Assembly (NCBI GenBank): GCA_964358095.1
Contig: CAYHNW010000003.1
Location: forward strand, 10,306-74,305
Direction: 5' to 3'
Source of the DNA: an uncultured Candidatus Peribacteria bacterium
Lineage (GTDB): Bacteria; Patescibacteriota; Gracilibacteria; UBA1369; UM-FILTER-53-11
DNA length: 64,000 nt
How positions within the stretch are numbered: position 1 is the stretch's first letter; each line of letters starts with the position of its first letter. Below the pieces are notes generated by a model, which was not told the origin of the DNA, did no database searches, and worked only from the letters and a program-made list of their open reading frames with translations. Made by a program: the position numbers and the translations under genes. Shown piece after piece: positions 450 through 60,471 of this stretch.

Positions 450-3263
450 TCATCGTACCACCGGAGCCGCTACCGGACAAATTAAACGATAGTCGCAGAA
501 ACTGCAGACGTAGCCGGGGGTAGGGGAGAAATCAGAGGAAGAGATCTCATCCGCAAGTTTCAAAATATCATCTTTGCAAACATCCAAACTTTTATCGGTA
601 CGTTCTGTTGATATTTTTTCGCCGGTTTCCAAAAGATAAAGGCTAAGTTTTGAAACCGGAATTTGTAGTACGTCACGGCACGCCAGGGCGTAAACGGAGA
701 GTTGTAGATTGTTCTTGAGGCTTTTCCCCTGACTTTCGCCCGTTTTATAGTCAATTACCTCATACGTTCCGTCCGGCAGACGATCTATGCGGTCTATTCG
801 TCCGTCAAAAATAGTATCTTTTATCTTAAGTTTAAAGGGGACTTCTATGTGTGAGGGGATTATTGGATTTTTCATCTCATTTGCATAAAATTTTGTAAGA
901 ATTTTAAATCCGTGTTTCTTTTGGATTTCTTGCATGGCACGTGTTTCATACCCGCCAATAATCCAATTTTTTTCATAAATCTCTCGTAAAACCGGCATCA
1001 AATTCTCATTGAACCTTTTTGCATCTTTTCGTAGAAGTAGATAAAAATCGCGCAAAGTATTGTGCATCGTTATTCCAAAATTCAAAACTGCCGGCATTTC
1101 ACCCGTAATTTTTGAAATGTATCTGAATTTATATTTAAGTGGACACATTTGAAATGTATCCAGTTGGCTATAACTCAATTTTGGCAATGGCGTTTTTATT
1201 TGTCCATGAGGCCTACTTTCAAAATCCAGCACAGTTTGTCGTGACGAGGATTTTGATTTTTTTACCTTATCAACCAAGATCGCCTTACCGCTTTCTAGAG
1301 CTTCCGCCACAAAGATAGATGGTTTCCATTGTTTTTTGCCGTCGTAAAAGTCGCTATAAGACAGAATTAAATCTTGTCTTGCACGAGTGCATGCAACATA
1401 AAATAATCTGCGCTCTTCTTCTAAATGGTGATTGCCTTCAGGGAGCGGTTCCGGAATTAATTCCGGTGGGATTTCTATTGCTTCTTTTCTATCCATTCCC
1501 GGGAATTTCCACTGAGCAAGCCCTGGCACAAAGACGGCATCAAATTCTAGCCCCTTTGCGCTATGAATGGTTAGTAACTTAATTGCGGACGGATCAATGA
1601 TCTGCGAACCGATTTCACGCTGGCCAACCTGCTCTAGCATTTGTGCGTAATTCAAAAAATCCATTACTTGCTTATGTTCGTGATTCTCTTCAAATTCGCG
1701 CACTTTCTCGGAAAACATGGCTATGTCTTCTACTATTTCTTGGCTGGCATCTTTTAAATAACCACTGTCGCGCAAAAACTTTCCGATTACTTTTGAGGCT
1801 TCATTCTTGCGTGAAAATTCCAAAAGTTCAGCAAGTATTTTTTTTACATTTTCAAATGTGGAGCCTGATACAAAATCGAACAGGGAACGGTTTTCAACTC
1901 TGGCTCGTTTTGTTATTTCCAAAATGCGCTCCATTTGGATTTTCCAAAGAGGCAAAGATAAAAATCTAAACATCGCAATGTCATCCCATGGATTAGCCAA
2001 AACTTTCAAAAGGGCAAAGCAATCTTTGATGCCAGCTTTTGTAAAAAGGTTTATGGGCGAAAAATGCTGGAATGGCGCACCTACATTTCTTAGTTTTTCC
2101 AAAAAAGGAGTTGCGAGCGCGTTGGTGCGCACCAAAATTGCCGGTGAAAGCTTCTTTTTGAGTGCCGCAATCGCTGATGAAACCACAAAATCCACTTCAT
2201 CTGCCAAGTTTTCAAAATGAAATATCTGAGTTGGCTTTTCTTTGTGTTCTTTTGCGGCCACCAATTTCTTTTCGATATTTTCGGTAGATTCGAGCCGGCG
2301 CGGGTTGTTTTTTTGTATGACGCTGTATGCCATATCCAAAATTTGCTGGCTGTTGCGATAATTGTCGCTCAAAACCACGCGGCGCGCTTCTGCAAATTCT
2401 TTTTGAAAATATTGAATATTTGTGAGTGAAGCTCCGCGCCACTTGTAAATTGCCTGATCGTCATCGCCGACAACAAGTAAGTTGCGGTGGCGTCGCGCAA
2501 GCATAGTTACTATTTTGTTTTGCGCGTAATTCGTGTCTTGAAATTCGTCCACAAGAATATATTTGAAGCGTTTTTGGTACTGCGCCAGCACAGACGCTCT
2601 TTTTTCAAACAAACGAAGCGTATGAAAAAGCAATCCACCAAAATCAATGTAGTTATTTTCAATTAAGAGCTTTTCATAAATTCCATACGACTTTGCAAGT
2701 TCGAGATGCTTTTTGGCATCCTCTTGCTCTTCGTCGTTTTTGGCTGCACTTTCCATTTTTCTCGCGTGTTCCACATACTGCTCTGGTTTAATATCCTCGT
2801 CCTTTAATCGGCTAAAATATTCCTGCATAGCCATTAAAAGCCTTTGTGGATTGCCCAAACTTCTAAAATAATCGAGCTCAAAATCGGCCAAGTGACGACG
2901 CAAAAATATCCACAAGTCCACTTCTTTCAAGATTTTGTAGTCGGTAGCGAGTCCGATATTGAGTCCGCTTTCGCGCAAAACCGCATCACAGAACGCGTGG
3001 AATGTTTTTACCCATACTGCCTCCATTCCAAGCGGAAGTTCGGAATCAATGCGATCAGTCATCTCTTGCGCGGCCTTTTCCGTAAAAGTAAGCGCCAAAA
3101 TCTGATCCGGAGAAACGCCTTTTTCTAAAATCAAATATAAAATCCTGCCTACAAGAAGGTTTGTTTTACCGGTTCCGGCGCCGGAAATTACCAAAATCGA
3201 GCCACTATCGTGAGTAATTGCCTCCCTTTGTCTTTCATTATAATTTGTAAGTGAAAACGCCAT
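450..3263 (-). CDS. UvrD/PcrA-type SF1 helicase fused to a C-terminal PD-(D/E)XK (Cas4/AddB-like) nuclease
   Basis: 937 aa. Helicase motifs: ISGAGTGKTN (Walker A), VDEFQDTN (motif II), TIHSAKGLEF, YVACTRAR. The C-terminus has CPLKYKFRY, GRIDRIDRLPDGTYEVIDYKTG, QLSVYA and CSFCDYRLIC, which is the C...CxxCx5C pattern of 4Fe-4S Cas4/AddB nucleases. Confidence 0.85.
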   Translation of the reverse strand: MAFSLTNYNERQREAITHDSGSILVISGAGTGKTNLLVGRILYLILEKGVSPDQILALTFTEKAAQEMTDRIDSELPLGMEAVWVKTFHAFCDAVLRESGLNIGLATDYKILKEVDLWIFLRRHLADFELDYFRSLGNPQRLLMAMQEYFSRLKDEDIKPEQYVEHARKMESAAKNDEEQEDAKKHLELAKSYGIYEKLLIENNYIDFGGLLFHTLRLFEKRASVLAQYQKRFKYILVDEFQDTNYAQNKIVTMLARRHRNLLVVGDDDQAIYKWRGASLTNIQYFQKEFAEARRVVLSDNYRNSQQILDMAYSVIQKNNPRRLESTENIEKKLVAAKEHKEKPTQIFHFENLADEVDFVVSSAIAALKKKLSPAILVRTNALATPFLEKLRNVGAPFQHFSPINLFTKAGIKDCFALLKVLANPWDDIAMFRFLSLPLWKIQMERILEITKRARVENRSLFDFVSGSTFENVKKILAELLEFSRKNEASKVIGKFLRDSGYLKDASQEIVEDIAMFSEKVREFEENHEHKQVMDFLNYAQMLEQVGQREIGSQIIDPSAIKLLTIHSAKGLEFDAVFVPGLAQWKFPGMDRKEAIEIPPELIPEPLPEGNHHLEEERRLFYVACTRARQDLILSYSDFYDGKKQWKPSIFVAEALESGKAILVDKVKKSKSSSRQTVLDFESRPHGQIKTPLPKLSYSQLDTFQMCPLKYKFRYISKITGEMPAVLNFGITMHNTLRDFYLLLRKDAKRFNENLMPVLREIYEKNWIIGGYETRAMQEIQKKHGFKILTKFYANEMKNPIIPSHIEVPFKLKIKDTIFDGRIDRIDRLPDGTYEVIDYKTGESQGKSLKNNLQLSVYALACRDVLQIPVSKLSLYLLETGEKISTERTDKSLDVCKDDILKLADEISSSDFSPTPGYVCSFCDYRLICPVAAPVVR

Positions 3264-3275
3264 AGGGAACTCACA

Positions 3276-4316
3276 TTATCTCAAAATCTTTTCCCATTCA
3301 ATCTCCATTTTTTCTTCTTGTATTATAAATCGCTGAGATTTCATGTGATCATGCCCTACGCATGCGAACTCTTCGGCAGCTTTTGTGTCTTCAATAGGAT
3401 ATGGAGATTTGAACCATCTTCCATATTCCCCAGTTCGTTTCATTATTGTTTTTATTTCTTCAACTTTTTTAAAATACTCGTCTGGCGAATAGGGGAGATT
3501 AAGAATGTAGAACTTGCGATTTTTAAGCGCAGTACATCCAAAACAATGTTCACACTCAAAACAATACTCGCAATATTCCAGGTTTTTGCCATACCAGCAC
3601 GTACTGCAAAAGTTACAATCATGCAATCCCATTCCACTCATTATTTCATAGGAGTTAACCACCGGATCTTCACCTGCAAACGAAACATCTGTGCAATGCA
3701 TACAGCTATTCGTGTTGTTCATGTAAAGACAATTTAGGCATTTCTCAACGTCAAAACAAAACTGGCATGAATCACTATTACTAATGTAATCGCCCGTGCA
3801 AAGTCCTTCTTCGTGATTTGCACGCATATAAATGTGAGGTCTTATTTTTTTTACCTCTTTGAATAATTTTCGCAATTCGTTTGGCTGTTTTTTCTTTAAT
3901 TTTGCCACCGTCTCAAAATACGCATCCTTTGAATATAGCTTATTGTAAATAAAATATTGTTTTCTCCATAACCCTATACAGGCAAAACAGTCCCTCAAGT
4001 CTTGGCAGTCAAAACAATAGTGGCTGTTCTCACAATCTTCGCAGTCTTGCAAAAAGGATGAATCTTTGCATTTTCTGCAGTCCAAACATTCGTAACATTC
4101 TTCGCAAGAACGACAATATGAAGAGTCTACGCAGTTTTTATTGTAATAACCCCAATAGTTATAGTGCGAATTCTTTAAAAAATCACTCCCAGTGGTGCTA
4201 TAACAATCCACGCATTTATAAGTGAAATTGCAAAAAGGACTCCGCTCGTCCCTAAAGTTCATCAGGGAGAGCCGCGGTACACTTGATCTTAGTTTTTCAA
4301 ATTGCTCAAGAAACAT
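3276..4316 (-). CDS. Cysteine-lattice repeat protein, paralog A (function unknown)
   Basis: 346 aa with no signal peptide or TM. Dense CxxC runs such as CRSCEECYECLDCRKC and CEYCFECEHCFGC. Both halves end in a C-x-G/A-C-x-x-L...(F/Y)-x-I-x-N-x-x-Y-S-x-D/E-x-Y/F motif. The N-terminus FLEQFEKLRSSVPR is shared with the other paralogs. Confidence 0.8.
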   Translation of the reverse strand: MFLEQFEKLRSSVPRLSLMNFRDERSPFCNFTYKCVDCYSTTGSDFLKNSHYNYWGYYNKNCVDSSYCRSCEECYECLDCRKCKDSSFLQDCEDCENSHYCFDCQDLRDCFACIGLWRKQYFIYNKLYSKDAYFETVAKLKKKQPNELRKLFKEVKKIRPHIYMRANHEEGLCTGDYISNSDSCQFCFDVEKCLNCLYMNNTNSCMHCTDVSFAGEDPVVNSYEIMSGMGLHDCNFCSTCWYGKNLEYCEYCFECEHCFGCTALKNRKFYILNLPYSPDEYFKKVEEIKTIMKRTGEYGRWFKSPYPIEDTKAAEEFACVGHDHMKSQRFIIQEEKMEIEWEKILR

Positions 4317-4372
4317 AAAGAGCCGATACTAATCGGTGATTCTAGCCCCTTTTACGCCTAAAATCAATATTT

Positions 4373-5305
4373 TTAACCAAATACCAGCCAATCGTAATTA
4401 CCTGATTTCTTCAACCCTTCGCGGATTTCGGCAACTTCTTTGTGCCAGGCATCTTTCGTATACTGCTTATTTAAAATCAAATATTCACGTCTATTTGTAA
4501 ACGCGCACCCAAAGAGATATTTACTATTGAAACAACCTTCGCAAAACTCGCTGTCGTGAAGATGTTCACAATAATGGCAAAAATTACTGTTCCAGCCGTC
4601 GCCAACTTGGATGCATTCATAGCAACTGTGTAAATCTACGCTAAAGTAGCAATCAAACACGTCTTCGCATTTATCACCGTATGCCGTGTAAATATCGTGA
4701 AGCCATGCGCCACTGTGAATGTTTTTCGCATTAAAACAGCCGAAACAGTCGCGTGAATTTTGAATGTTGTCACCAAAACAATTCTCGGTTTGATATTGGC
4801 GTGAAGCTACGTGCGGATGACTTTTTCTTAGTCGCTCAACTTCCGTATCAATCTCTGCACGCGGCATTTTCTTTAAATCGGAAATTTTTTCGGCATACTC
4901 TTCCTGTGAGTATCTCTTATTAAAAATAAAATTCTGGCTTCTGCGTAGCCCAACGCACCCAAAACAATTCTGGCAATTTAGGCAGTCGTAGCAGTGGTTG
5001 CAATCCGAACAATTGCGCAGAAATTGAGAAAAATCGCAGTTGTAGCTCCCATAGACTTCGATACCTTCATAACAAAGTTCGCTATTCCAAATATCTTCGC
5101 AGTCGCAGCAAAATCTGCTGCTATTAACGGTGCCGCTATACATACAGCCCTCAGAAGTATCCATATCAAAACAAAGGTAACAATTTTTAGAAAGATACAT
5201 TGCGTTACCATAGGGGCAATTTTGATTCTGGTAGCCGCTCACCGAAATACGCGGCGTCTTGAAGCACAACTGCTTAAACCCGGCTATAAATTCTTCTGCA
5301 GTCAT
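4373..5305 (-). CDS. Cysteine-lattice repeat protein, paralog B (function unknown)
   Basis: 310 aa. Contains NCSDCNHCYDCLNCQNCFGCVGLRRSQNFIFNKRYSQEEY and, in the second half, CEGCFNSKYLFGCAFTNRREYLILNKQYTKDAW. Same two-module layout as 3276-4316, 5735-6667 and 59527-60471. Confidence 0.8.
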   Translation of the reverse strand: MTAEEFIAGFKQLCFKTPRISVSGYQNQNCPYGNAMYLSKNCYLCFDMDTSEGCMYSGTVNSSRFCCDCEDIWNSELCYEGIEVYGSYNCDFSQFLRNCSDCNHCYDCLNCQNCFGCVGLRRSQNFIFNKRYSQEEYAEKISDLKKMPRAEIDTEVERLRKSHPHVASRQYQTENCFGDNIQNSRDCFGCFNAKNIHSGAWLHDIYTAYGDKCEDVFDCYFSVDLHSCYECIQVGDGWNSNFCHYCEHLHDSEFCEGCFNSKYLFGCAFTNRREYLILNKQYTKDAWHKEVAEIREGLKKSGNYDWLVFG

Positions 5306-5356
5306 ACGTCTTGAGCAAAAGCGAAAAGGGTAATTATTAAATACTTTGAAGGGAAA

Positions 5357-5398
5357 GGGGATGTGCGAAGGGGAAAACCGTCAAGGTTTTCCCCTTCG
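5357..5398 (-). repeat. Conserved stem-loop element, copy 1 (14-bp stem) 3 nt after a stop codon
   Basis: Plus strand: ggggatgtg + cgaaggggaaaacc / gtcaa / ggttttccccttcg. The second copy at 56102-56144 has the same flank and outer stem, with three compensated base-pair changes. No U-run follows in either orientation. Confidence 0.6.
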
Positions 5399-5401
5399 TT
5401 A

Positions 5402-5686
5402 CTAACCGATGTTCTGCCAGAAACACTCTTGGCAATAGACGATGTACTTGGAATCAGGCGCGTAAGTGGAAATAATATCCTTTTGGCATTTATCGCACTT
5501 TCTCTTATAAAGTTTGCGTTCGTTGCGAAGCGAAAGTCTGCGTTTTTGACGGCACTCCGGACAATTTGCAGGCCATGGCAAATCTTTCTTCTTATAAAAC
5601 TCTTGTTCCTGCGGAATTATTAAAAACTGCTTTTGGCAGGTTTCGCATTTGCGAATTTCTTCTTTTAGAGCTGCTGCGTCCGCCAT
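5402..5686 (-). CDS. Small zinc-ribbon protein (four CxxC pairs; resembles the 'probable zinc-ribbon' zf-trcl type)
   Basis: 94 aa. CETCQKQFLIIPQEQEFYKKKDLPWPANCPECRQKRR matches my recollection of the C-x2-C...EQ-x-FY...P-x-x-C-x-x-CR signature. A second ribbon follows: CDKCQK...YCQEC. Confidence 0.7.
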   Translation of the reverse strand: MADAAALKEEIRKCETCQKQFLIIPQEQEFYKKKDLPWPANCPECRQKRRLSLRNERKLYKRKCDKCQKDIISTYAPDSKYIVYCQECFWQNIG

Positions 5687-5734
5687 AGATTTAAGGAGTT
5701 AATTGCTAATATATTGCCTGGGGCTAATTCTACC

Positions 5735-6667
5735 CTACTTTATTGTCTCTGCAAGAGATTTTCCGTAGACCTTAGCCTCTTTGAGATCTTTTATGATCTT
5801 TGCCGATGCCGCCAAATATTCATCTCTGGTGAACTGGCGATTCAAGATGCAGTACTCTTTATTCATCAGATAAGTGCAACCCAGGCAACTGCGGCAATTA
5901 TAACAATTAAGGCAGTATGTAGAGTCGCTGCAACCTATGCAGTTCTCCACAAAGCTACAATTATTGCAGGAATTGACATTGTGACATTCATAACAGAGTT
6001 CAATACCGGAACAGAAATCACAATCTACATTATCGGCAGAACTGGTCTGCTGATCGTTGACGTGTGAAACGTATGCAGAATCTGAAACATTGCGCACGCT
6101 AAAACATTGGAAACAATTTTTGCTGAAATATATGTAGTCGCCAAAACAGTGTTCACCGCCTTTTAGCATACGAGCATAGAGCCGTGGATGTTTATTGAAT
6201 TGAGGTGTCAAGACCTCAATAATCTTTTTTGGAGTATTCTTTTTAAATTCAGCGACGCGTTTTCTATATACGTCTTCAGGATAACTCTTGTTAAAGATGC
6301 AGAATTTTTGTTGTCGCAACCCAAATGATCCAAAGCAATCTTTGCAATTCAAACAGTCCGTGCAGAAATCGCAATTTGAACAGTTGTGGCAATCTTGAAG
6401 ATGCGAACAGCCGTAAAGTCCGCTGCAATCCACGCATTGATAGCTGAGTTCGCATGAGCCAAGATGAGCGCAGTCCACGCAATCTCTGCACTTGGTCAAA
6501 TACTCCGAGTAATAGCAATCTTCACATTCGGTTATGAAATAGCTTAGATAAATGTTTTTTGAAAGATAGACGTAATCTGAAAACTCGCAATTTTCTGCGG
6601 TACGACTGCTGGTTGCGTTCCTTGGTTTTGAAACAAGAAGATTTTTAAATTCTTTGTAAAAGTCCAT
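5735..6667 (-). CDS. Cysteine-lattice repeat protein, paralog C (function unknown)
   Basis: 310 aa, about 35 Cys by my count. Contains CHNCSNCDFCTDCLNCKDCFGSFGLRQQKFCIFNKSYPEDVY and CLNCYNCRSCLGCTYLMNKEYCILNRQFTRDEY. It starts 11 nt after the ATPase gene stop. Confidence 0.8.
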   Translation of the reverse strand: MDFYKEFKNLLVSKPRNATSSRTAENCEFSDYVYLSKNIYLSYFITECEDCYYSEYLTKCRDCVDCAHLGSCELSYQCVDCSGLYGCSHLQDCHNCSNCDFCTDCLNCKDCFGSFGLRQQKFCIFNKSYPEDVYRKRVAEFKKNTPKKIIEVLTPQFNKHPRLYARMLKGGEHCFGDYIYFSKNCFQCFSVRNVSDSAYVSHVNDQQTSSADNVDCDFCSGIELCYECHNVNSCNNCSFVENCIGCSDSTYCLNCYNCRSCLGCTYLMNKEYCILNRQFTRDEYLAASAKIIKDLKEAKVYGKSLAETIK

Positions 6668-6678
6668 TTAGCTATAAG

Positions 6679-8925
6679 CTAGATAAGAGGTTCTGCAAAT
6701 TTCTGCTCAATTGCTCCGGCTGAAGCAGCATCTGGTTCGGACGCGCTTTCGTCCCATTTTTTGAGGTCATTCTCAACCTGAGACCTAGGATTGGCGTATT
6801 TTTCGCGAGATTGGCGGATAATTTCAGTGCTGTAATGATCTTTTGGAGCAGAAACATTTAATGTGCGTCCAGAAAAGGCATCGCGCAGTTCTCCGTCAAC
6901 TGACATTTTTACGTAAAATTCGCGAACGCCGAGGTTGATGATATCGCGGACTTTAAATACCGGCGTATATTCATTTTCCAAGATCGCGGCATCTTCGGCA
7001 CCGACGCGGAAATTTATAATGGTACCGACGTTGCCGAAAGCCGTTGTGCGTATCATATGGGACAATTGACCCATATATTGGTGAGCCATTGTAAGGTTCA
7101 GGTGGTATTTGCGAGCCTCGGAAAGAATTTCTGCAAATGTGTCGGTGGCAAAATATTGGAACTCATCACAATAGAGATAAAAATCGCGGCGATTTTCCTC
7201 TGGAATACCAGTTCTGGCCATTGCTGCTTGCTGAATTTTTGTAACCACCATTGAGCCGATGAGTGCGGCGTTTTCTTCGCCCAAATTACCTTTTGAAATT
7301 CTCATCAATAAAATTTTGCCGCTATCCATTATATCTTGAATATCTATTTTATTGGTCGGTTGGCCAACTATGTTTCGGATTAGAGAAGTAGAAACGAACT
7401 GGCCGACCTTGTTCAAAATTGGCATTATCGCTTCATTATCAAATTTTTCACTCCATGCCGCGAACTCGTTTACCCAGAAATTTTTAATAACTGAATCTTG
7501 TATGCGTGACACAATTTTCTGGCGATAATTCTTATCGGAAAGCATTTTTAAAATGGAAAGCACCGTCGTATTTGGAGAATCCAAAAGAGCGAGGGTGGTG
7601 TATCTCAAAACGTGTTCAAGACGATTGGTCCAGTTGTTGCCAAAAAGTTTCTTAAAAATATCAATAAAGCCGATTGTAACGCGAACTCGCAGTTCCGGAG
7701 GCACGTGCTCGAGCGGATTAAAAGCAACTGGAAATTCAAAATCTGCAGGATTGAAATAAACTACGTCATTTATGCGGTTTTCCGGAATGTATTTCAAAAT
7801 CGAATCCACAAGATCTCCGTGAGGATCCAGAACTCCGACACCATGACCCGCCATAATGTCTTCCTTTATGAGCAATTCCAGCATTTTTGATTTACCGGTA
7901 CCGCTTTTGCCAACAACATAAAGATGGCGGCGGCGGTCTTCGCGCTTGAGTCCAAATTTAAAATTCTGATTATGAAAATTTGTGACGCCAAATATTGAAA
8001 CTTTATCAAGAGATACGTTGCCTTCACGCGGCAAATCACGCGGCGGTTCGGCTTTTTTTGCCAAAACGTGCACGATGTGGGGTACATCGTCCGGGTGGGG
8101 GAAGTGATAAATACTAGCCAATTCTATCGAGCTCAAATGAAAAGCATCTGGTGGCATCGTGCGTTCTTGGTAACTTTTCAACAAGCTCGTCATGCGCAGC
8201 ATTTTTTTTGCTTTAAATCCATTCAGGTCAATTGTATTAAACTGCATAAAGGCCTTAATGAGAACGTGCAGTTTTTGCTGTGCTTTTTCTTTTGTTTTTG
8301 CCACATACACAATTCTCACCGCAGTTTTATATGTGTGATGTTCGGCCTTGTGCTTATATGCTTCGCGCTCCATTTCGCGCATACTTTTGGCAGACTTGAG
8401 CTTGAAATAGTTTTTAATGCGGAAATAAAGTTTCACGCTATTTAACTTCATCTTCCAGCTGCGCCAGAAATTTAATCTCCAATCGTCGGCGGTTGGTTCC
8501 ACAAAGGTTTGGATCCAAATCTGCTCGTCTTCTTCAGCCTTTGTCATGATAGAGAAAATGCCAGATAGCGAGTCGCCTTCGAATTCCTTAAAAGTTTTTA
8601 TCGGAATGATGTCGGATCTCAAAAGTTTTAATTCAGTTCCCGCAAACCCGCGTTCAAGCACATCGGGCTTAACGTAATCCGTTACTTCTTCAATTTCACA
8701 GAATGGATACTGTGCGTAAATTTGTCCTTCTATGAGTTCTTTAAGTCTTCGTTCGATGCACGCAAAGAAGTAAATATGCTGGTTATATGATGTCATTTCG
8801 AAGGTGAACGCATGATGATGCAGAATTTCGTGTATGTTCACGAGAAACTGCTCAAAAGACAGCACCCTCTTTTCGATTTCTTGAGGGATCCTGATTAGAA
8901 GCAAAGCTTTATCTTTAGGCATCAT
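6679..8925 (-). CDS. VirD4/TraD/TraG-like (FtsK-HerA superfamily) P-loop ATPase, soluble form
   Basis: 748 aa. Walker A is VVGKSGTGKSKM and Walker B is FYLYCDEFQYF, followed by EARKYHLNLTMAHQY (coupling-protein-like C-terminal block). It shares ELASIYHFP and the overall layout with the paralog at 23805-26285 but lacks that protein's N-terminal TM helix. Confidence 0.75.
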   Translation of the reverse strand: MMPKDKALLLIRIPQEIEKRVLSFEQFLVNIHEILHHHAFTFEMTSYNQHIYFFACIERRLKELIEGQIYAQYPFCEIEEVTDYVKPDVLERGFAGTELKLLRSDIIPIKTFKEFEGDSLSGIFSIMTKAEEDEQIWIQTFVEPTADDWRLNFWRSWKMKLNSVKLYFRIKNYFKLKSAKSMREMEREAYKHKAEHHTYKTAVRIVYVAKTKEKAQQKLHVLIKAFMQFNTIDLNGFKAKKMLRMTSLLKSYQERTMPPDAFHLSSIELASIYHFPHPDDVPHIVHVLAKKAEPPRDLPREGNVSLDKVSIFGVTNFHNQNFKFGLKREDRRRHLYVVGKSGTGKSKMLELLIKEDIMAGHGVGVLDPHGDLVDSILKYIPENRINDVVYFNPADFEFPVAFNPLEHVPPELRVRVTIGFIDIFKKLFGNNWTNRLEHVLRYTTLALLDSPNTTVLSILKMLSDKNYRQKIVSRIQDSVIKNFWVNEFAAWSEKFDNEAIMPILNKVGQFVSTSLIRNIVGQPTNKIDIQDIMDSGKILLMRISKGNLGEENAALIGSMVVTKIQQAAMARTGIPEENRRDFYLYCDEFQYFATDTFAEILSEARKYHLNLTMAHQYMGQLSHMIRTTAFGNVGTIINFRVGAEDAAILENEYTPVFKVRDIINLGVREFYVKMSVDGELRDAFSGRTLNVSAPKDHYSTEIIRQSREKYANPRSQVENDLKKWDESASEPDAASAGAIEQKFAEPLI

Positions 8926-8964: not shown

Positions 8965-8998
8965 TTATGGAAAATAGTAGTTCTTGAGAACTAACAGG

Positions 8999-23804: not shown

Positions 23805-26285
23805 TTATATGTCTGACCCTATTCTCCTGAGAATTTCCCTACTCACATATTCACGCGGTCTGCCATACTTTAACCTGGAAAGCTGTTTAAGAGCCTCACC
23901 CAGGTTCTTGTCGCCACTATCTGTATATGGATTAACCGGTGTAATGCTAAAAGGTCGGCTTGGCTGAGTATCTATGGAAAGTTTCATGCAGGCCTTATAC
24001 TTGTCCAAATTGACCAAATCCTGATCTGAGAATACAGGTGCCATTTCTTTGCCCATGTACTCCGAATCTTGAGCACCAATCTTGTAGCACATAATAGAAC
24101 CTACGTTACCGAATACAGCATCTTTCAAACTTACTTTTTTGGCACCTTTCTTTGCTTCGCCACCTTCTAGCTGAGCGAGGTATTGATGCGCCATGTTTAA
24201 GCCCAGGCGATATTTTCTAGCTTCGGACAATATCACTTCAATACTTTCAGTCACATAGTTTTGGAATTCATCAATGTATAGGAAAAAGTCACGGCGTTCG
24301 CTCTTTTCCACCTTTTGCCTCTTGAGTGCCGCCATTTGCAACTTGCTAACGGCTATAAGACCAAGCAGTTTGCTGTTGATTTCACCGGTTTCACCTTTTG
24401 CAAGATTCATAAGCAATATTTTTCCTTCCTGCATGACTTTGAAGAAATCAAAGGCAGATTTTGCTTGGCCAATGATGTTGCGCATCATGCCATTTGTGAC
24501 GAATGCGCCGAATTTTGCGGCAAAGTACGGAATCATTTCTTGCTTTTCTCTGGCGCCAGTTTTTGCCATTTGGTGCATCCAGAATGACTTAACAATCGGA
24601 TTTTTTACCTTTGTAACTTTGTATTTTTGAAAATCATCATCGGTAAAAAGACGCACTATGTCGGTAAGAGCCCCACCTTCCGGATCATCCATCAAAGTTA
24701 GACAGCCGTTGCGGAAATAGTCTTGAATGCGTGGACCAAATATTTCTTCATCAAAAAGCTTGATCATGATGTTCATGGCATCGAGCGCAACCATGTCTTT
24801 TTCTTCTTCGGTATTTGCTTCAAGCAAATTTAACCCCATCGGGCGTTCTAGATCGGCCGGATTGAAATAGATCACGTCATCAGCTCTTTCACGCGGGATA
24901 AATGGAAGAATATCTTCTATAAGAGAACCGTGCGGATCAATTACACAGAGGCCGTCGCCGTTCTTTAAATCCTGGCGAATCATAACCTGCAAAATAGAAG
25001 ACTTACCAGTACCGGTTTGACCAATGACATAGAAATGACGAAAACGATCTTCACGCTTCATGCGAATTTCTCTTGATTGACCGCGATATAAATTGTGCCC
25101 AAGAAGTATGCCTTCGTCTGGGATATTCGCCGGCGCCGGTGCAATTTTAAAGTTCTGCCATGCAATCGTAGACTGGCGATTGAAACGAATGTTTGGAAAG
25201 TGGAAAACGCTCGCAAGTTCATCGGAAGACAAAATCATAGGCATTTGGGTGAGCCTCATGAGCCATGTGCGCTTGAGCGTTCTCAAAATAAAATTATTAA
25301 CCAGCCCTTTCGTCGAATGATATTTGGTTTTTTCGAGAGAGTTGTTGTCAGTTGTACCATACTGTGCAAATGCACTGCGCACGTTTGCCAATTGTTGCGC
25401 AGCCTGATAGTAAGTCGGCGCAGCCGTTATGACTCTAATGACCGCCTCATATCCCTTCTTGGTATTCTTTTCTTCTATTGCTTTTACCTGATCATCGGTT
25501 AGCGGCGTCGTGCGAGTTGCGCCTTTATTGGTGTCCATGTTTTGTTTTAAATCTTCCGCGCCACGGACGCCTATGCCAAAAATCGTGCCGATCCATGAAA
25601 CTGGATTCCACCAATGAAATTTACTTGCGTGCGTAAAAATTTCTTCTGCTCTTTTGCGTCCTTTATCCTGCCAGCCATCAGCTTCCGGCCTTATAATAAT
25701 CTGAATCGCTCCGCCCTCATCAGGACCCAATTTTGAAAGTACATTACAGACAGTATTGATGGGATCTTGGCTCATGCGCTGAAAAGTACGCAGCGGAAAA
25801 AATGGCTCCTTTGCCATTTTCATATAAGAGGCCGCTACCTTGGAATTTGGTTTAAAAACATTATAATCCTGGACTTGTTCAATATAAGCGTCAGGATAAA
25901 AACCGGTAATTTGTTTTTCAAAAAGGGATACAAGTGACCTTGGCAAAACAATGTACTGATAAATTTGGTTATTGAAAACCGCATATTCCAGCGAGAAAAA
26001 ATCTTGGCCGATTATTTTATGTTTTATATCGGACTCATAAGTGGCATGAATTGCCTCATAAAACTGACCCATTATGGCAACAACCTCCTTAAAATCTTTT
26101 TCGCCGGCATATTGACCGCCTTCTTTTTCACGATCATCTTTTGATTCCTTCTTAGGGATAAGGACTTTTAAGAAGACCATGTTAAGAGACTTCGCCATAT
26201 TTGCGCGGACGCGAATATACCACCAGATCAGGAGCAAAAGGATTACGAACCCGACTACGCTTAGAAGACTGTATAAGAAAATCAT
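23805..26285 (-). CDS. VirD4/TraD/TraG-like P-loop ATPase, membrane-anchored paralog
   Basis: 826 aa. N-terminal TM helix MIFLYSLLSVVGFVILLLLIWWYI. Walker A is VIGQTGTGKSSI and Walker B is FFLYIDEFQNY, followed by EARKYRLGLNMAHQY. ELASVFHFP is shared with 6679-8925. Confidence 0.75.
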   Translation of the reverse strand: MIFLYSLLSVVGFVILLLLIWWYIRVRANMAKSLNMVFLKVLIPKKESKDDREKEGGQYAGEKDFKEVVAIMGQFYEAIHATYESDIKHKIIGQDFFSLEYAVFNNQIYQYIVLPRSLVSLFEKQITGFYPDAYIEQVQDYNVFKPNSKVAASYMKMAKEPFFPLRTFQRMSQDPINTVCNVLSKLGPDEGGAIQIIIRPEADGWQDKGRKRAEEIFTHASKFHWWNPVSWIGTIFGIGVRGAEDLKQNMDTNKGATRTTPLTDDQVKAIEEKNTKKGYEAVIRVITAAPTYYQAAQQLANVRSAFAQYGTTDNNSLEKTKYHSTKGLVNNFILRTLKRTWLMRLTQMPMILSSDELASVFHFPNIRFNRQSTIAWQNFKIAPAPANIPDEGILLGHNLYRGQSREIRMKREDRFRHFYVIGQTGTGKSSILQVMIRQDLKNGDGLCVIDPHGSLIEDILPFIPRERADDVIYFNPADLERPMGLNLLEANTEEEKDMVALDAMNIMIKLFDEEIFGPRIQDYFRNGCLTLMDDPEGGALTDIVRLFTDDDFQKYKVTKVKNPIVKSFWMHQMAKTGAREKQEMIPYFAAKFGAFVTNGMMRNIIGQAKSAFDFFKVMQEGKILLMNLAKGETGEINSKLLGLIAVSKLQMAALKRQKVEKSERRDFFLYIDEFQNYVTESIEVILSEARKYRLGLNMAHQYLAQLEGGEAKKGAKKVSLKDAVFGNVGSIMCYKIGAQDSEYMGKEMAPVFSDQDLVNLDKYKACMKLSIDTQPSRPFSITPVNPYTDSGDKNLGEALKQLSRLKYGRPREYVSREILRRIGSDI

Positions 26286-45052: not shown

Positions 45053-46101
45053 AGCAATTTCAATTTAACTTTTTGCACATTGCGATAATAGTTTCCTTCG
45101 TTTTTTTGGGAATCGTAGTGTCGCCGTTTCTTACCACCCTCGTTCTTGCGGCAATACTCGTAACCGGAACTTACCCTATATACACTTGGGTTTTAAAAAA
45201 AGTGAGGGATCGAAAAAGGGTGGCTGCTGCCATAATGGCGTTTTCCATCGGCATAATCTTCAGCATTATATTTGTGGTATTTTTCTTACTTCTTTCTCAA
45301 GAAGCGGTTTCCACTTATCAAAGTTTTGACCAATGGATACGCACCGTTAACCTAAATGAAATAATAGCAAAAGCCAGTAAATATATCGGTATACCGCCGG
45401 TTGATTTGATTTCTTCCATTACGCAAGGCGCACAAAGTTTCTCTGGAGTTTTGGTGGAGCAAAGCACTAGTTTACTAAAAAGTGTAGCCTGGCTCATTTT
45501 GAGTTTTTTCTTGCTCGTATTTGCAATGTATTTCTTTTTCAAAGACGGTAAATACATTATCGAGTCATTCGAAAAAATAATTCCGCTGCCGACACCTTAT
45601 GGTCGTGAAATCTTCAATAAATTTCGACAAGTTTCATTGGCCATGCTCTATGGAATTTTTCTCACGGCCATAGTTCAAGGTTTCCTTGGGGGAATTGGGC
45701 TCGCCATTGCAGGCGTTGGCAATCCAATATTTTGGGGTACAGTGATGGGGTTTTTGGGAATGCTTCCAATTGGAGGCACGGCTCTGGTTTGGCTACCAGC
45801 AGGTATATTTTTAATTTTTAGCGGCCACCATTATATCGCTGGCATAGGTTTATTGCTTTGGGGCGGCGCAATTGTTGCCTCAATGGATAATTTTATCAAG
45901 CCAATTGTTATTTCGAGACAGGCAAACACTTATCCTCTGGCGACATTTCTGGTTGTTGTCGGTGGACTTATGATTTTTGGGTTAAAAGGCGCCATTATGG
46001 CTCCAATGGTGCTTGCAGCCCTCGTATCTCTCCTACATATCTACGGGTTGGAATCTTACAATGACGAATGCCCACCGGCGCGTGAAGACGCTAAGGATTA
46101 G
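45049..46101 (+). CDS. AI-2E (PerM/YhhT) family transporter
   Basis: 350 aa, polytopic. GFLGMLPIGGTALVWLPAGIFL and the FIKPIVI motif. Overlaps the murJ stop by 4 nt. Confidence 0.7.
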   Translation: MKQFQFNFLHIAIIVSFVFLGIVVSPFLTTLVLAAILVTGTYPIYTWVLKKVRDRKRVAAAIMAFSIGIIFSIIFVVFFLLLSQEAVSTYQSFDQWIRTVNLNEIIAKASKYIGIPPVDLISSITQGAQSFSGVLVEQSTSLLKSVAWLILSFFLLVFAMYFFFKDGKYIIESFEKIIPLPTPYGREIFNKFRQVSLAMLYGIFLTAIVQGFLGGIGLAIAGVGNPIFWGTVMGFLGMLPIGGTALVWLPAGIFLIFSGHHYIAGIGLLLWGGAIVASMDNFIKPIVISRQANTYPLATFLVVVGGLMIFGLKGAIMAPMVLAALVSLLHIYGLESYNDECPPAREDAKD

Positions 46102-47164: not shown

Positions 47165-47167
47165 AAT

Positions 47168-55963: not shown

Positions 55964-56017
55964 ATGGCCGCATTATAGCAGTTAAAAAGGTGCTGTAAAA
56001 AAATTAAGCGCGTGTAG

Positions 56018-56061: not shown

Positions 56062-56101
56062 CGGAACTAGGCGAAATCTTTTTTACAGCACAACAATATT
56101 A

Positions 56102-56144: not shown

Positions 56145-56146
56145 AT

Positions 56147-57735: not shown

Positions 57736-58560
57736 TTGCACGTTGCCTTTAAAAACGCTTTGCCTTACAATTGTGTTGAAAAATTTTACACCACAATTGC
57801 CTTGAAAGACGATTTAAATCATGTTCTTACGAATTTGGGGTTTGAGCCCAAAGAAGCGGCCGTTTATTTGGCGCTGCTCGAACTTGGCAAAGGCAGCATT
57901 TTGGAAATCGCCCGCGCCTCCGGCGTCAATAGAGCATCCATTTATTACATAATTGAAGGGATGAAAAAGCGCGGTTTTGTTACGCAAATAGAAGGCAGTG
58001 GCGGCGTTCACATATATATGCCAACCGATCCGCGACTGCTTTTGGCACGTGAAAAACAGCACGTGAAAGAGCTTGAAGCCGTGGTTCCAAATTTGAAGGC
58101 GCTGGCAAACAACACGGGTCATCGCCCAAGCGTGCGGTTTTTTGAGGAACTGGAAGGCGTAAAGGCAATTTACGAAGATACGCTTTCGGCAAAAACGGAA
58201 ATATTGAATTACGCAAATTCGCAAGAAATTCGTGACCACTGGCCAAATTATGACAGCGAATATGTGGCAAAACGCGCCGAAAAAAAAATCTGGCTGCGTG
58301 GCATTGCTCCGGACGACGACGGCGGACGACGCGTGCAGGCCGAAGATCCCAAATTTCACCGCGAAATTCGCCTTATTGATCCAAAAAAACTGCCATTCAA
58401 CAACGAAATCAACATTTACGACAATAAAATCTCCATGGTTTCCTTCATCAAGCCCATTTTCGGCGTAATCATTGAAAGTAAGGCACTGGCGGAAACACAA
58501 CGCTCCATATTTGAGATGGCTTGGAGTTTTGCCGGAAAGGCTGATAAAATCGGGTCATGA
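57736..58560 (+). CDS. TrmB-family transcriptional regulator
   Basis: N-terminal winged HTH LGFEPKEAAVYLALLELGKGSILEIARASGVNRASIYYIIEGMKKRGFV. The track start is TTG 57736; the in-frame TTG at 57802 (M-KDDLNHVL) is equally plausible. The stop overlaps the purC start (ATGA). Confidence 0.7.
   Translation: MHVAFKNALPYNCVEKFYTTIALKDDLNHVLTNLGFEPKEAAVYLALLELGKGSILEIARASGVNRASIYYIIEGMKKRGFVTQIEGSGGVHIYMPTDPRLLLAREKQHVKELEAVVPNLKALANNTGHRPSVRFFEELEGVKAIYEDTLSAKTEILNYANSQEIRDHWPNYDSEYVAKRAEKKIWLRGIAPDDDGGRRVQAEDPKFHREIRLIDPKKLPFNNEINIYDNKISMVSFIKPIFGVIIESKALAETQRSIFEMAWSFAGKADKIGS
57768..57799. promoter_or_regulatory. Perfect 8-bp inverted repeat just upstream of (or within the first codons of) the TrmB-family gene; candidate operator
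   Basis: caattgtg at 57768-57775 and cacaattg at 57792-57799, separated by a 16-nt AT-rich spacer. Confidence 0.35.
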
Positions 58561-59522: not shown

Positions 59523-59526
59523 TTCT

Positions 59527-60471
59527 ATGGATTTTTTCGCAGAACTTGAGCAATTGCAACTGAAGACGCCGCGAATTGGCTCCGTGCGTTTGCAGTCCAT
59601 CAACAGCGATTACAATCACAATATAGACGGCTGCAAAAATTGCTATTTGCTCTGCAATGCCGTAAAAAACGAAGACTGCATGTATGGCCGTGATTTTTAT
59701 GATAATGCCGACTGCGTTGACTGTGATCACGTTCGGCGCTGCACTCTGTGCTACGAATGCCTAAACTGCGCAGAATGTTGGAATTGCAAATATTTGCAGG
59801 ACTGCAAAAACTGCAGCGATTGTGATTTTGGATATTACCTAAAAGGCTGCAAAAACTGCATCGGATGCGTCGGACTAAATCAAAAAGAATTTTGCATATT
59901 TAATAAACCGTATTCAAAAGAAGATTTTTTGGACAAGAAAAAGTCTCTGACGGAGGAAGAAATTGCGCGTGAATTTGACGAACTAAAACACCATGTGCCG
60001 CGCACGCCTACACTGCAAATGGAAACAGAAAAATGCTTTGGTGATGCCCTTTTACATTGCAAAAATGCCTTTTACGCCTTTGATTGTGACGGATGCCAAG
60101 ACAGCGGATACGTTTATGAATGTAAAAGCCTCGAAGATTGCTTCGATATTTTTGTGCTGGAATATTCTGAGCTGTGCTACGAATGCAGCAGCAATTATAA
60201 ACTTCACAATTCTAATTTCTGTTTCATGTGCACAGGTTCCAGCAATTTGGAATATTGTGAGTTAGTGATGAACAGCAAAGATTGTTTTGGATGTATGGGG
60301 CTGAACCACAAAGAGTATTGCATATTGAACGTGCAATATTCTAAGGAGGATTATTTTAAGCGCGTGGCAGAAATTAAGGCACAGTTGCGTGCGAGCGGCG
60401 AATACGGAAAAAGGTTTTTGCCATCGAGTTATCCCATGCAAGATACGGTGGGCGTTTGGGAAAAATTGTAA
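59527..60471 (+). CDS. Cysteine-lattice repeat protein, paralog D
   Basis: 314 aa. The N-terminus FFAELEQLQLKTPR matches the other paralogs. Contains GCKNCIGCVGLNQKEFCIFNKPYSKEDF and SKDCFGCMGLNHKEYCILNVQYSKEDYF. It starts 4 nt after the purC stop. Confidence 0.8.
   Translation: MDFFAELEQLQLKTPRIGSVRLQSINSDYNHNIDGCKNCYLLCNAVKNEDCMYGRDFYDNADCVDCDHVRRCTLCYECLNCAECWNCKYLQDCKNCSDCDFGYYLKGCKNCIGCVGLNQKEFCIFNKPYSKEDFLDKKKSLTEEEIAREFDELKHHVPRTPTLQMETEKCFGDALLHCKNAFYAFDCDGCQDSGYVYECKSLEDCFDIFVLEYSELCYECSSNYKLHNSNFCFMCTGSSNLEYCELVMNSKDCFGCMGLNHKEYCILNVQYSKEDYFKRVAEIKAQLRASGEYGKRFLPSSYPMQDTVGVWEKL

What the first reader, a model, noticed from the sequence alone, without database searches (positions are those of the whole stretch)
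3276..8925. Candidate uncharacterised module: soluble VirD4/TraD-like ATPase, three tandem Cys-lattice paralogs and a zinc-ribbon protein, upstream of a helicase-nuclease and rmuC
Seen in the sequence: five co-oriented genes run from 8925 down to 3276 with short gaps (11, 48, 96 and 56 nt). They are, in order:
- a 748-aa P-loop ATPase (GKSGTGKS, DEFQYF, EARKY..HQY) that lacks the N-terminal TM anchor of its paralog at 23805-26285;
- 310-aa, 94-aa, 310-aa and 346-aa Cys-rich proteins with no signal peptide or TM segment.
The same strand continues after 12 nt into a UvrD-type helicase fused to a Cas4/AddB-type nuclease, then rmuC after 8 nt. A weak hairpin and the shared promoter-like motif precede the ATPase gene. 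No relaxase and no VirB4/B6/B8-B11-type genes are visible in this window, so the ATPase is not part of an obvious T4SS.

Inference: the ATPase and the presumably metal-binding paralogs may form a DNA- or nucleoprotein-handling unit. I cannot name a described system with this composition.
Basis: partly seen in the sequence, partly recalled or inferred. Interest (0 to 1): 0.85.

Follow-up and report, generated by a model that had tools for sequence, protein, structure and literature searches.

The report
Orphan secretion-type ATPase with cysteine-ladder protein arrays
In a group of tiny, host-dependent bacteria, a highly conserved motor ATPase of the kind that normally feeds cargo into a type IV secretion system sits next to tandem copies of a large, fast-evolving, undescribed family of zinc-finger and cysteine-ladder proteins, which gives a first lead to what this orphan motor does.

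Summary
The five genes are at the stated coordinates, with the stated gaps and motifs. The organism is a Peregrinibacteria-type Patescibacteria (CPR) MAG.

Two parts of the reading hold up:
- **ATPase and Cys-rich genes are linked.** In 80 species-level loci holding the ATPase ortholog, 61 carry Cys-family genes within 10 kb. In 35 of 57 loci with both neighbours visible, a Cys gene is the immediate neighbour, nearly always co-oriented. The genes lie upstream or downstream, in arrays of up to nine.
- **The 94-aa zinc-ribbon protein belongs to the same family.** The usual form is about 550 aa: finger module, double Cys/Ser-ladder beta-solenoid, finger module. The window carries split versions.

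The helicase-nuclease and rmuC are only local neighbours (8 and 4 of 80 loci).

The linkage is asymmetric. Only 5 of 79 Cys-centred loci hold the ATPase. The only other recurrent neighbour is a TrmB-type regulator. The window has that regulator and a fourth core paralog near 58-60 kb.

The solenoid core has no Pfam, NCBIfam or PDB relative, although its profile matches 4,413 protein clusters. I found no paper describing the association.

Best guess, at about 0.37 confidence: the soluble T4CP/VirB4-like motor handles these proteins as clients, probably for export.

The parts
6679..8925 (-). Soluble ATPase of the VirD4/VirB4 (T4CP-like) branch of FtsK-HerA motors, with an N-terminal domain of about 300 aa (DUF8128 in relatives) and no TM helix
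   Evidence: Pfam DUF87 (31.9 bits, cutoff 23.2) and T4SS-DNA_transf (23.9, cutoff 20.1). NCBIfam TraD and VirD4-like hits are far below their cutoffs. Best PDB sequence hit is TrwB at 4e-4. The AF2 model has pLDDT 80. Foldseek top hits are TrwK/VirB4 full length (1.5e-15), TrwB (TMt 0.6) and HerA. No hydrophobic segment. Orthologs are 54-90% identical in 80 listed species loci, out of 348 confirmed relatives.
5735..6667 (-). CysA: core-only member of the Cys/Ser-ladder double beta-solenoid family (310 aa, 11.3% Cys)
   Evidence: No Pfam, NCBIfam, PADLOC or PDB hit. 77 homologs found, none with a Pfam domain on record. The AF2 model (pLDDT 75) shows two lobes of 4-residue strands with period 6. 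Foldseek gives only weak beta-helix and Cys-repeat hits.
5402..5686 (-). Standalone treble-clef finger module (zf_Tbcl + zf_Tbcl_2), equivalent to the C-terminal module of full-length family members; together with CysA it looks like a gene fission
   Evidence: Pfam PF13451 (30.9 bits, cutoff 24) and PF23477 (22.6 bits, below its cutoff of 27). 43% identical (9e-24) to residues 460-555 of a long form, and 39% to its N-terminal module. Its 90%-identity cluster has 64 members.
4373..5305 (-). CysB: core-only paralog (310 aa)
   Evidence: Family HMM E = 1e-108. 35% identical to CysA.
3276..4316 (-). CysC: core plus the conserved post-core linker (GEYGRWF..SPYP), 346 aa
   Evidence: Family HMM E = 2e-101. 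Aligns to residues 111-453 of a long form.
59527..60471 (+). Fourth core paralog, unlinked to the ATPase, 4 nt downstream of purC
   Evidence: Family HMM E = 2e-105. ORF listed.
57736..58560 (+). TrmB-family regulator of the same subfamily that is embedded in Cys arrays in other genomes
   Evidence: Pfam TrmB 1.2e-15. HMM built from the array-embedded regulators gives E = 2e-64. That subfamily occurs in 30 of 80 ATPase loci and in 24-32 of 79 Cys loci, depending on the counting method.
23805..26285 (-). Membrane-anchored paralog of the ATPase. It is a candidate envelope partner by inference only; it is not adjacent to the module
   Evidence: 32% identity over 740 aa. TM helix at residues 1-28. 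Lies next to a 3D-domain/PG_binding protein. The same pairing is seen in Ca. Peribacter riflensis genes 303-304.

Best explanation
The cluster is the local, pared-down form of a lineage-wide gene partnership in Peregrinibacteria/Peribacteria-type Patescibacteria.

One partner is a very conserved soluble hexameric-type motor ATPase of the type IV coupling protein/VirB4 branch. The other is a fast-evolving multigene family of cytoplasmically synthesised proteins. The full-length family architecture is: treble-clef zinc-finger module, double Cys/Ser-ladder beta-solenoid, second finger module. In this window the architecture is split into three core genes and one finger gene.

Proposed mechanism: the ATPase uses these proteins as clients, as coupling proteins do with their substrates. 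It would recognise the conserved parts (finger modules and solenoid caps) and spend ATP to unfold or deliver them, most likely for Sec-independent export. A possible route is the membrane-anchored paralog that sits beside cell-wall hydrolases. The variable solenoid surfaces would then act on diverse external or host targets. TrmB-type regulators would control which array members are expressed.

Shown:
- gene models and homologies
- the finger-core fusion
- conserved, co-oriented adjacency in both directions of testing
- rapid divergence of the family compared with the conserved ATPase

Inferred:
- physical interaction
- client or cargo status
- export
- the regulatory role of TrmB

The UvrD-nuclease and RmuC genes are ordinary neighbours and not part of the unit.
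For: **Adjacency from the ATPase side**
- 61 of 80 species loci hold Cys genes within 10 kb, and in 46 of 80 the nearest is within 500 bp. 186 of 203 Cys ORFs are co-oriented with the ATPase.
- A Cys gene is the immediate neighbour in 35 of 57 loci with both sides visible. 43 of 45 such neighbours are co-oriented, with a median gap of 65 nt.
- The arrays lie upstream only (32 loci), downstream only (18) or on both sides (11), and no other gene family recurs in more than 9 loci apart from TrmB. The pair has therefore survived extensive rearrangement.

**Adjacency from the Cys side**
- The ATPase borders 5 of 77 visible array ends. About 1 in 1000 is expected if any gene were equally likely (P about 2e-8).
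- The ATPase and TrmB are the only recurrent non-family neighbours.

**Family architecture and evolution**
- Finger modules are fused to the core in the roughly 550-aa majority form.
- The ATPase is T4CP/VirB4-like.
- Paralogs are about 40% identical even between genomes whose ATPases are 82% identical. This fits a diversifying client repertoire served by one conserved motor.
- No signal peptide or TM helix. The nearest fold analogues for the Cys ladder are extracellular disulfide-ladder proteins: TNFR-Cys-like (1.2e-8 in BFVD) and the Tenebrio antifreeze beta-helix (not significant).

**Context**
- The complete Ca. Peribacter riflensis genome shows the same layout. Gene 657 (748 aa, COG0433) is preceded by seven genes of 550-570 aa and two TrmB-like genes.
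- The literature already notes that most Patescibacteria T4CP homologs are orphaned from virB4 and may be exapted (PMC12102498).
Against: - Only about 6% of Cys-centred loci contain the ATPase, so most family members are encoded away from it.
- Four ATPase loci with full 10-kb flanks have no Cys gene.
- Distant family members, including one in a Bdellovibrionota MAG, have no ATPase nearby.
- The ATPase has no membrane anchor, and no T4SS channel genes lie near it.
- The conserved C-terminus is a folded zinc finger, unlike the usual disordered T4SS signals (my knowledge of T4SS substrates).
[quoted passage not shown] Peribacter riflensis supplementary annotation fit an intracellular nucleic-acid role equally well.
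- There is no expression, interaction or localisation data.
- All genomes are MAGs. ORFs were called stop-to-stop with code 11, so arrays from UGA-recoding relatives may be fragmented.
Confidence: 0.37

Rival explanations
1. Intracellular nucleic-acid handling unit. The finger modules would bind DNA or RNA and recruit or load the ATPase, which would act as a DNA translocase like FtsK, HerA or a conjugative coupling protein acting on DNA. Possible roles are DNA uptake, segregation or repair.
For: - The motor belongs to the FtsK-HerA/T4CP clade, whose members translocate DNA.
- The finger modules are treble-clef and mildly basic: +7 net charge in 94 aa, with a conserved R/K stretch between the fingers.
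- An IMG label for one cluster member reads 'ssDNA-binding Zn-finger/Zn-ribbon topoisomerase 1'.
- In this clade the genes are followed by a UvrD-PD-(D/E)XK helicase-nuclease and RmuC.
Against: - Linkage to the helicase-nuclease and RmuC is confined to the closest relatives (8 and 4 of 80 loci).
- Dozens of rapidly diverging paralogs are not expected for a housekeeping DNA process.
- The closest solved relative of the C-terminal finger is a LIM domain, a protein-protein module, and that match is weak (E = 0.003).
Confidence: 0.2
2. There is no direct functional coupling. The Cys family acts on its own, for example as TrmB-controlled regulators, scaffolds or binding proteins. One array happens to be retained beside the ATPase through shared regulation or an expansion hot spot.
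For: - Most arrays lie away from the ATPase (5 of 79).
- TrmB is a more frequent neighbour than the ATPase from the Cys side (24-32 of 79).
- The window's fourth paralog sits with TrmB and purC, 50 kb from the ATPase.
- Family members occur without the ATPase nearby in other lineages.
Against: - Adjacency is enriched about 65-fold over chance from the Cys side. It holds in 61 of 80 loci from the ATPase side, despite changes of side and of every other flanking gene.
- Neighbours are nearly always co-oriented, with short gaps.
- The standalone finger protein is about as conserved as the ATPase.
Confidence: 0.2
3. Anti-phage or conflict system. A HerA-like ATPase would work with a variable set of sensor or decoy proteins, or the arrays would be immunity-type paralogs like those beside some secretion ATPases.
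For: - Weak PADLOC hits of the ATPase to mad8 (4.6e-9) and HerA models.
- Birth-and-death evolution of the arrays.
- Phage homologs of the ATPase exist: PHROG 5156 at 2.9e-72 and phage G gp156.
Against: - The ATPase is 54-90% identical across a class-level lineage, was confirmed in 348 genome stretches, and sits in housekeeping surroundings. Defence genes do not usually behave like this.
- The Cys proteins give no PADLOC hit.
- The family is almost absent from IMG/VR.
- No nuclease or other effector domain is linked to it.
Confidence: 0.08
4. Metal- or sulfur-related role, with the Cys ladder binding or storing Zn, Fe or Cu, or buffering redox state, and the ATPase unrelated or acting as a chaperone.
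For: - 7-11% Cys with strict three-residue periodicity.
- Conserved CxxCFGC caps.
- The terminal modules match zinc-finger families.
Against: - Ladder positions interchange among Cys, Ser and aliphatic residues, and only about five Cys are at least 88% conserved. This points to a packing role rather than fixed ligands.
- A conserved multi-domain architecture and diversifying surfaces are not expected of a storage protein.
Confidence: 0.05

Closest known systems
Type IV coupling proteins (VirD4/TrwB/TraD)
   Same: FtsK-HerA-type P-loop motor with a helical insertion. Pfam T4SS-DNA_transf scores above its cutoff. TrwB is the best solved sequence relative, and Foldseek gives TMt about 0.6 over about 410 columns.
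   Different: It has no N-terminal TM anchor; a soluble domain of about 300 aa (DUF8128) takes that position. No relaxase or T4SS channel genes are nearby. Scores against the NCBIfam TraD and VirD4 models are far below their cutoffs.
VirB4/TrwK ATPases of T4SS
   Same: They share a two-domain, soluble, roughly 750-800-aa layout. TrwK is the top full-length Foldseek match (E = 1.5e-15, TM 0.41-0.44).
   Different: No VirB4 Pfam family (CagE_TrbE_VirB) appears in the hit list down to E = 0.1. RMSD is 11-15 A, so only the overall architecture is similar. A separate VirB4-like gene exists in the related Ca. Peribacter riflensis genome.
Orphan T4CP homologs of Patescibacteria (PMC12102498, 2025)
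   Same: This is the same phenomenon. That paper counts 5,713 VirD4-like genes in 2,918 genomes, only 148 of them near virB4, and suggests possible exaptation.
   Different: That paper reports no linkage to a Cys-rich or zinc-finger family. The partnership described here would give these orphans a candidate partner.
Secretion ATPases flanked by variable substrate or immunity arrays, such as T7SS EssC with downstream paralog arrays (analogy from my own knowledge, not tested)
   Same: A conserved FtsK-family motor sits next to tandem, fast-diverging paralogs.
   Different: There is no homology between the array proteins, no WXG/LXG-type partners, and the ATPase belongs to a different branch. This is an analogy of logic only.
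Cys-ladder repeat folds (Tenebrio antifreeze beta-helix, TNFR-type Cys repeats) and other beta-helices (pentapeptide-repeat/Qnr, pectate-lyase-like)
   Same: Short-period beta-solenoid with a regular Cys ladder. BFVD TNFR-Cys-like hit at 1.2e-8, weak PDB beta-helix hits, and a phage ORF annotated 'insect antifreeze protein'.
   Different: No significant PDB match (best E = 1.5e-3, TM about 0.1). The period is 3/6 rather than 5 or 12. The proteins are made in the cytoplasm without a signal peptide. Each lobe is capped by a conserved CxxCFGC..N..Y(S/T)xEEY motif that none of these analogues is known to me to share.
Treble-clef zinc fingers: Pfam zf_Tbcl/zf_Tbcl_2; LIM domains
   Same: The 94-aa protein passes the PF13451 cutoff. 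The C-terminal finger of the long forms aligns weakly to the second finger of the LIM protein CRP1 (E = 0.003).
   Different: zf_Tbcl itself has no known function, and I found no paper that mentions it.

Membership tests
Type IV coupling protein (VirD4/TrwB/TraD) | FtsK/HerA-type nucleotide-binding domain with Walker A and B motifs | tested here: met
   GKSGTGKS and DEFQYF are present. Pfam T4SS-DNA_transf scores 23.9 against a cutoff of 20.1. Foldseek to TrwB gives E about 1e-12 and TMt 0.6.
Type IV coupling protein (VirD4/TrwB/TraD) | All-alpha domain inserted in the motor domain | tested here: inconclusive
   The AF2 model has a helical block at residues 410-530. The Pfam TrwB_AAD_bind score is 19.6, just under its cutoff of 20.5, and matches only residues 329-395.
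Type IV coupling protein (VirD4/TrwB/TraD) | N-terminal transmembrane anchor | tested here: not met
   No 19-residue window reaches a Kyte-Doolittle score of 1.6 (maximum 1.02). The paralog at 23805-26285 has such a segment at residues 1-28.
Type IV coupling protein (VirD4/TrwB/TraD) | Encoded with a relaxase and/or T4SS channel genes | tested here: not met
   None was found in the window. None recurs in the 80 ortholog loci.
VirB4 | VirB4-type sequence signature (Pfam CagE_TrbE_VirB) | tested here: not met
   Absent from the Pfam hit list down to E = 0.1. Only a structural resemblance to TrwK is seen.
HerA (with NurA nuclease) | HerA central domain plus a partner NurA nuclease | tested here: not met
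   DUF87/HerA central domain scores 31.9 against a cutoff of 23.2, but no NurA-like gene is present in the window or recurrent in the loci.
zf_Tbcl (PF13451) treble-clef finger | Score above the Pfam gathering cutoff | tested here: met
   The 94-aa protein scores 30.9 against a cutoff of 24. zf_Tbcl_2 scores 22.6 against 27, which is below cutoff. Long forms carry the module at both ends.
Pentapeptide-repeat / left-handed hexapeptide / antifreeze beta-helices | Significant sequence or structure match with the family's repeat period | tested here: not met
   No Pfam hit. Best PDB Foldseek hit is E = 1.5e-3 with TM about 0.1. The antifreeze protein matches at E = 5.4. The ladder period is 3/6 with Cys at i and i+3.
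AddA/RecB-type helicase-nuclease as part of the module | Conserved linkage with the ATPase and Cys genes | tested here: not met
   UvrD and PDDEXK_1 domains are present, but this gene is near the ATPase in only 8 of 80 loci, and RmuC in 4 of 80.
Known anti-phage defence systems (PADLOC) | Match of the components to defence-system models | tested here: not met
   Only weak P-loop-level hits of the ATPase to mad8 and HerA models. The Cys and finger proteins give no hit.

The most novel reading that the evidence does not exclude
Peregrinibacteria/Peribacteria-type CPR bacteria run a previously unrecognised, Sec-independent delivery pathway. In it, a dedicated soluble coupling-protein-like ATPase feeds a multigene repertoire of zinc-finger/Cys-ladder solenoid proteins, possibly a few percent of a roughly 1.2-Mb genome, to the cell surface or into host cells. 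There the Cys ladder would oxidise into a rigid disulfide-stabilised solenoid. This would be a new effector or surface-protein system central to the host-dependent lifestyle.
Probability: 0.25. Interest if true: 0.88.

Novelty: new variant of a known kind. Interest (0 to 1): 0.72.

Why it matters
Patescibacteria are a large part of bacterial diversity, yet how they interact with hosts is mostly unknown. A 2025 survey found thousands of coupling-protein homologs in these genomes that are not encoded with a secretion system, and left their role open (PMC12102498).

The association found here gives one conserved subfamily of those orphans a concrete candidate partner. It also points to a large protein family (4,413 clusters at 50% identity) whose solenoid core has no Pfam or NCBIfam model, no solved relative and no literature that I could find.

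Binding, localisation and expression experiments could now test this directly. If the proteins turn out to be cargo, this would be a new effector repertoire and export route in ultra-small bacteria.

Tried and rejected
- **Helicase-nuclease and RmuC as module members.** Rejected: they co-occur with the ATPase only in the closest clade.
- **Known family for the Cys core.** Pfam, NCBIfam, PADLOC and PDB sequence searches with both a single protein and profiles gave nothing. PHROGs gave only phrog_15341, of unknown function.
- **Structural relative for the Cys core.** Foldseek against PDB gave only weak beta-helix hits with TM about 0.1. BFVD gave Cys-repeat analogues of unknown function.
- **Phage or mobile origin.** The Cys family has one locus in IMG/VR. 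The ATPase has distant phage homologs (phage G gp156, SPO1 gp27.4), but these are not linked to Cys genes.
- **Identity with the 'cysteine-rich extracellular proteins' of the Peribacteria paper.** Rejected: those are 580-3,860-aa pappalysin/FG-GAP-like proteins, most of which the paper predicts to carry a signal peptide.
- **Positional orthology within arrays, which a fixed multi-subunit complex would predict.** Rejected: identities are about 40% both within and between genomes.
- **DNA-mimic idea for the solenoid.** The core is only mildly acidic, at -3 net charge per 100 aa.
- **Informative domain fusions.** Only one GNAT fusion was found among ten odd-length members.
- **Promoter and terminator scan.** Matches were no more frequent than in shuffled sequence.
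- **Literature searches** for DUF8128, zf_Tbcl/PF13451 and CPR cysteine-rich paralogs returned nothing relevant.

Full report
**Observation**

Five minus-strand ORFs lie at exactly the reported coordinates: 6679-8925 (748 aa), 5735-6667 (310 aa), 5402-5686 (94 aa), 4373-5305 (310 aa) and 3276-4316 (346 aa). The gaps are 11, 48, 96 and 56 nt. A UvrD+PD-(D/E)XK protein (450-3263) follows after 12 nt, and an RmuC N-terminus after 8 nt.

The three 310-346-aa proteins are 32-35% identical to each other. They are 9-11% Cys and have no hydrophobic segment. 110 of 125 consecutive Cys-Cys gaps are multiples of three.

The ATPase carries the quoted Walker motifs and has no TM segment. Its paralog at 23805-26285 is 32% identical over 740 aa and has one TM helix at residues 1-28. 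The window is core chromosome of a Patescibacteria MAG: CysA is 100% identical to NCBI protein AAB606_02470, and the surroundings encode ClpC, S1, RuvB, DnaE, tRNA synthetases and similar genes. Promoter- and terminator-like matches are no more frequent than in shuffled sequence.

**What the proteins are**

The ATPase passes the Pfam cutoffs for DUF87/HerA and T4SS-DNA_transf. TrwB is its best solved sequence relative. Its AF2 model (pLDDT 80) matches full-length TrwK/VirB4 (E = 1.5e-15), then TrwB (TMt about 0.6) and HerA. Relatives carry Pfam DUF8128 on the N-terminal 300 aa.

The 94-aa protein is a zf_Tbcl + zf_Tbcl_2 treble-clef module.

The Cys cores match nothing in Pfam, NCBIfam, PADLOC or PDB. 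The AF2 model (pLDDT 75) shows two lobes of 4-residue strands with period 6, each followed by a helix. Foldseek finds only weak beta-helix hits in PDB (TM about 0.1) and Cys-repeat analogues in BFVD. A family profile hits 4,413 clusters at 50% identity, 1,709 of them at E <= 1e-30. Database names are 'hypothetical protein' or 'zinc-ribbon domain containing protein'.

**Comparative genomics from the ATPase side**

A scan of GTDB species genomes confirmed 348 stretches encoding relatives of the ATPase. The 80 best (54-90% identity; Peregrinibacteria, Peribacteria, 'Gracilibacteria', Abawacabacteria) were fetched with 10-kb flanks. Main results:
- Cys-family ORFs occur in 61 of 80 loci, and in 46 of 80 the nearest is within 500 bp.
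- 186 of 203 Cys ORFs are co-oriented with the ATPase.
- The arrays lie upstream only (32 loci), downstream only (18) or on both sides (11), with up to nine copies.
- Where both neighbours are visible, a Cys gene is the immediate neighbour in 35 of 57 loci, with a median gap of 65 nt.
- Clustering all genes of these loci shows only one other recurrent family, a roughly 253-aa TrmB-type regulator, present in 30 loci and mostly on the opposite strand inside the arrays.
- UvrD-nuclease, RmuC, S1 and ClpC recur in only 8, 4, 8 and 6 loci. All of these belong to the window's closest relatives.

**Family architecture**

Most members are about 550 aa. Their layout is: N-terminal zf_Tbcl module, the roughly 310-aa core, a conserved 'GEWGEFFP..SPFxYN' linker, then a C-terminal zf_Tbcl/zf_Tbcl_2 module.

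The window's 94-aa protein aligns to the C-terminal module (43% identity, 9e-24) and to the N-terminal one (39%). CysC aligns to the core plus linker. The window clade therefore carries split genes, and the zinc-ribbon gene belongs with the cores.

Across 233 members the ladder positions interchange among Cys, Ser and aliphatic residues. Only the CxxCFGC caps, C262 and C271 are at least 88% conserved, and two Asn are invariant. This argues for a mostly structural ladder.

**Family dynamics**

Paralogs are about 40-44% identical within an array. They are about as different between species whose ATPases are 82% identical, with no positional orthology. The standalone finger protein, by contrast, has 64 members in its 90%-identity cluster.

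**The Cys-side test**

Of the 79 loci kept:
- only 5 contain the ATPase (3 of the 23 loci of at least 15 kb)
- 32 contain the TrmB regulator
- arrays reach 10-15 or more copies

The ATPase borders 5 of 77 visible array ends, against about 0.1% expected for any one gene (P about 2e-8). The ATPase and TrmB are the only recurrent non-family neighbours.

The linkage is therefore real but asymmetric. The ATPase usually has an array beside it, but most arrays have no ATPase. A rough ratio suggests 20-40 copies per genome; this was not measured.

In the complete Ca. Peribacter riflensis genome, gene 657 (748 aa, COG0433) is preceded by seven genes of 550-570 aa and two TrmB-like genes. [quoted passage not shown]'. 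The cysteine-rich extracellular proteins discussed in that paper are different, larger proteins. Distant family members in a Gracilibacteria MAG, a Bdellovibrionota MAG and another long contig have no ATPase nearby.

The window holds a fourth core paralog at 59527-60471. It lies just after purC and a TrmB regulator of the array-embedded subfamily (E = 2e-64).

**Interpretation**

The shown facts are:
- a conserved motor of the coupling-protein/VirB4 branch
- a fast-diversifying family made without any signal peptide
- a significant, co-oriented adjacency that survives rearrangement
- a shared regulator family

I infer that the motor acts on these proteins as clients, most likely to deliver them for Sec-independent export. 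Three points favour this. Coupling proteins are substrate receptors. One conserved motor with many diverging partners is the logic of secretion systems. The only fold analogues of the Cys ladder are extracellular disulfide-ladder proteins.

A membrane-anchored paralog beside peptidoglycan hydrolases is a candidate envelope partner. I put this mechanism at about 0.37 and a real functional partnership of some kind at about 0.7.

The rivals are nucleic-acid handling (0.2), no direct coupling (0.2), defence (0.08) and metal or sulfur storage (0.05).

**Novelty**

The orphan status of Patescibacteria coupling-protein homologs is published (PMC12102498). I found no description of the Cys/zinc-finger family or of its linkage to the ATPase.

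I rate it a new variant of a known kind: a coupling-type ATPase with an undescribed partner family. A categorically new system is not excluded.

**Caveats**

- All data come from MAGs.
- ORFs were called stop-to-stop with genetic code 11.
- The 80-locus samples were chosen by similarity to the query.
- Copy number per genome is only estimated.
- No expression or interaction data exist.

Noticed in passing
window 57736-60471 (+): A TrmB-family regulator (57736-58560), purC (58557-59522) and a fourth Cys-lattice core paralog (59527-60471, 314 aa) lie co-oriented, about 50 kb from the ATPase. The regulator belongs to the same subfamily that is embedded in Cys arrays in other genomes.
   Followed up: yes
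window 60588-63998 (+), runs off the window end: An ORF of more than 1,137 aa, with a hydrophobic N-terminal segment that looks like a signal peptide, three CARDB domains and DUF6531. From my knowledge DUF6531 is typical of the N-terminal part of Rhs-type proteins. It lies immediately downstream of the fourth Cys paralog.
   Followed up: partly
window 18607-26285 (-): The membrane-anchored paralog of the ATPase (23805-26285) sits next to a protein with a 3D domain and four PG_binding_1 domains (22037-23710) and close to an M23 peptidase with SLH domains (18607-20973). The same ATPase-plus-rlpA pairing occurs in Ca. Peribacter riflensis (genes 303-304), which suggests a conserved envelope-associated unit.
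   Followed up: partly
L088 (Bacillus phage G 90859-93336) and other Bacillus phages: Phage G gp156 is 25% identical to the ATPase over 91% of its length, including the N-terminal domain, and lies next to gp155, annotated 'VirB-like'. SPO1 gp27.4, 0305phi8-36 ORF201 and D6E ORF23 are also homologs (PHROG 5156, function unknown).
   Followed up: partly
window 5402-6667 (-): CysA (core only), followed 48 nt later by the finger gene, looks like a fission of one full-length gene. The finger protein has 64 members in its 90%-identity cluster, far more conserved than the cores (48-67% identity among close relatives).
   Followed up: partly
window 8975-8993 (-): A short inverted repeat, AGTTCT-CA-AGAACT, lies between the S1 stop codon and the promoter-like TTTCCA-16-TGgTATATT upstream of the ATPase. 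It could be a weak terminator or an operator.
   Followed up: no
window 36926-38757, 46091-48364, 54674-59522: Genes for NAD synthesis (nadA, nadC), riboflavin (ribD, ribBA), purines (purA, purC) and glutamine synthetase. This is more biosynthetic capacity than is usual for CPR bacteria, and it fits the nucleotide-synthesis capacity reported for Peribacteria (PMC4736985).
   Followed up: no
window 35497-36579 (+), 39425-43435 (-): Unusual domain combinations: Sigma70_r4 with HARE-HTH in one protein; an MFS transporter fused to HEAT repeats (849 aa); and a SpoIIE-type phosphatase next to a STAS-domain protein.
   Followed up: no
L073 (contig JBLIGW010000019.1, labelled Oceanicoccus sp.): A contig assigned to a gammaproteobacterial MAG carries the ATPase (57% identity), two Cys-family genes and the TrmB regulator. 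This is probably a binning contaminant from a Patescibacteria genome.
   Followed up: no
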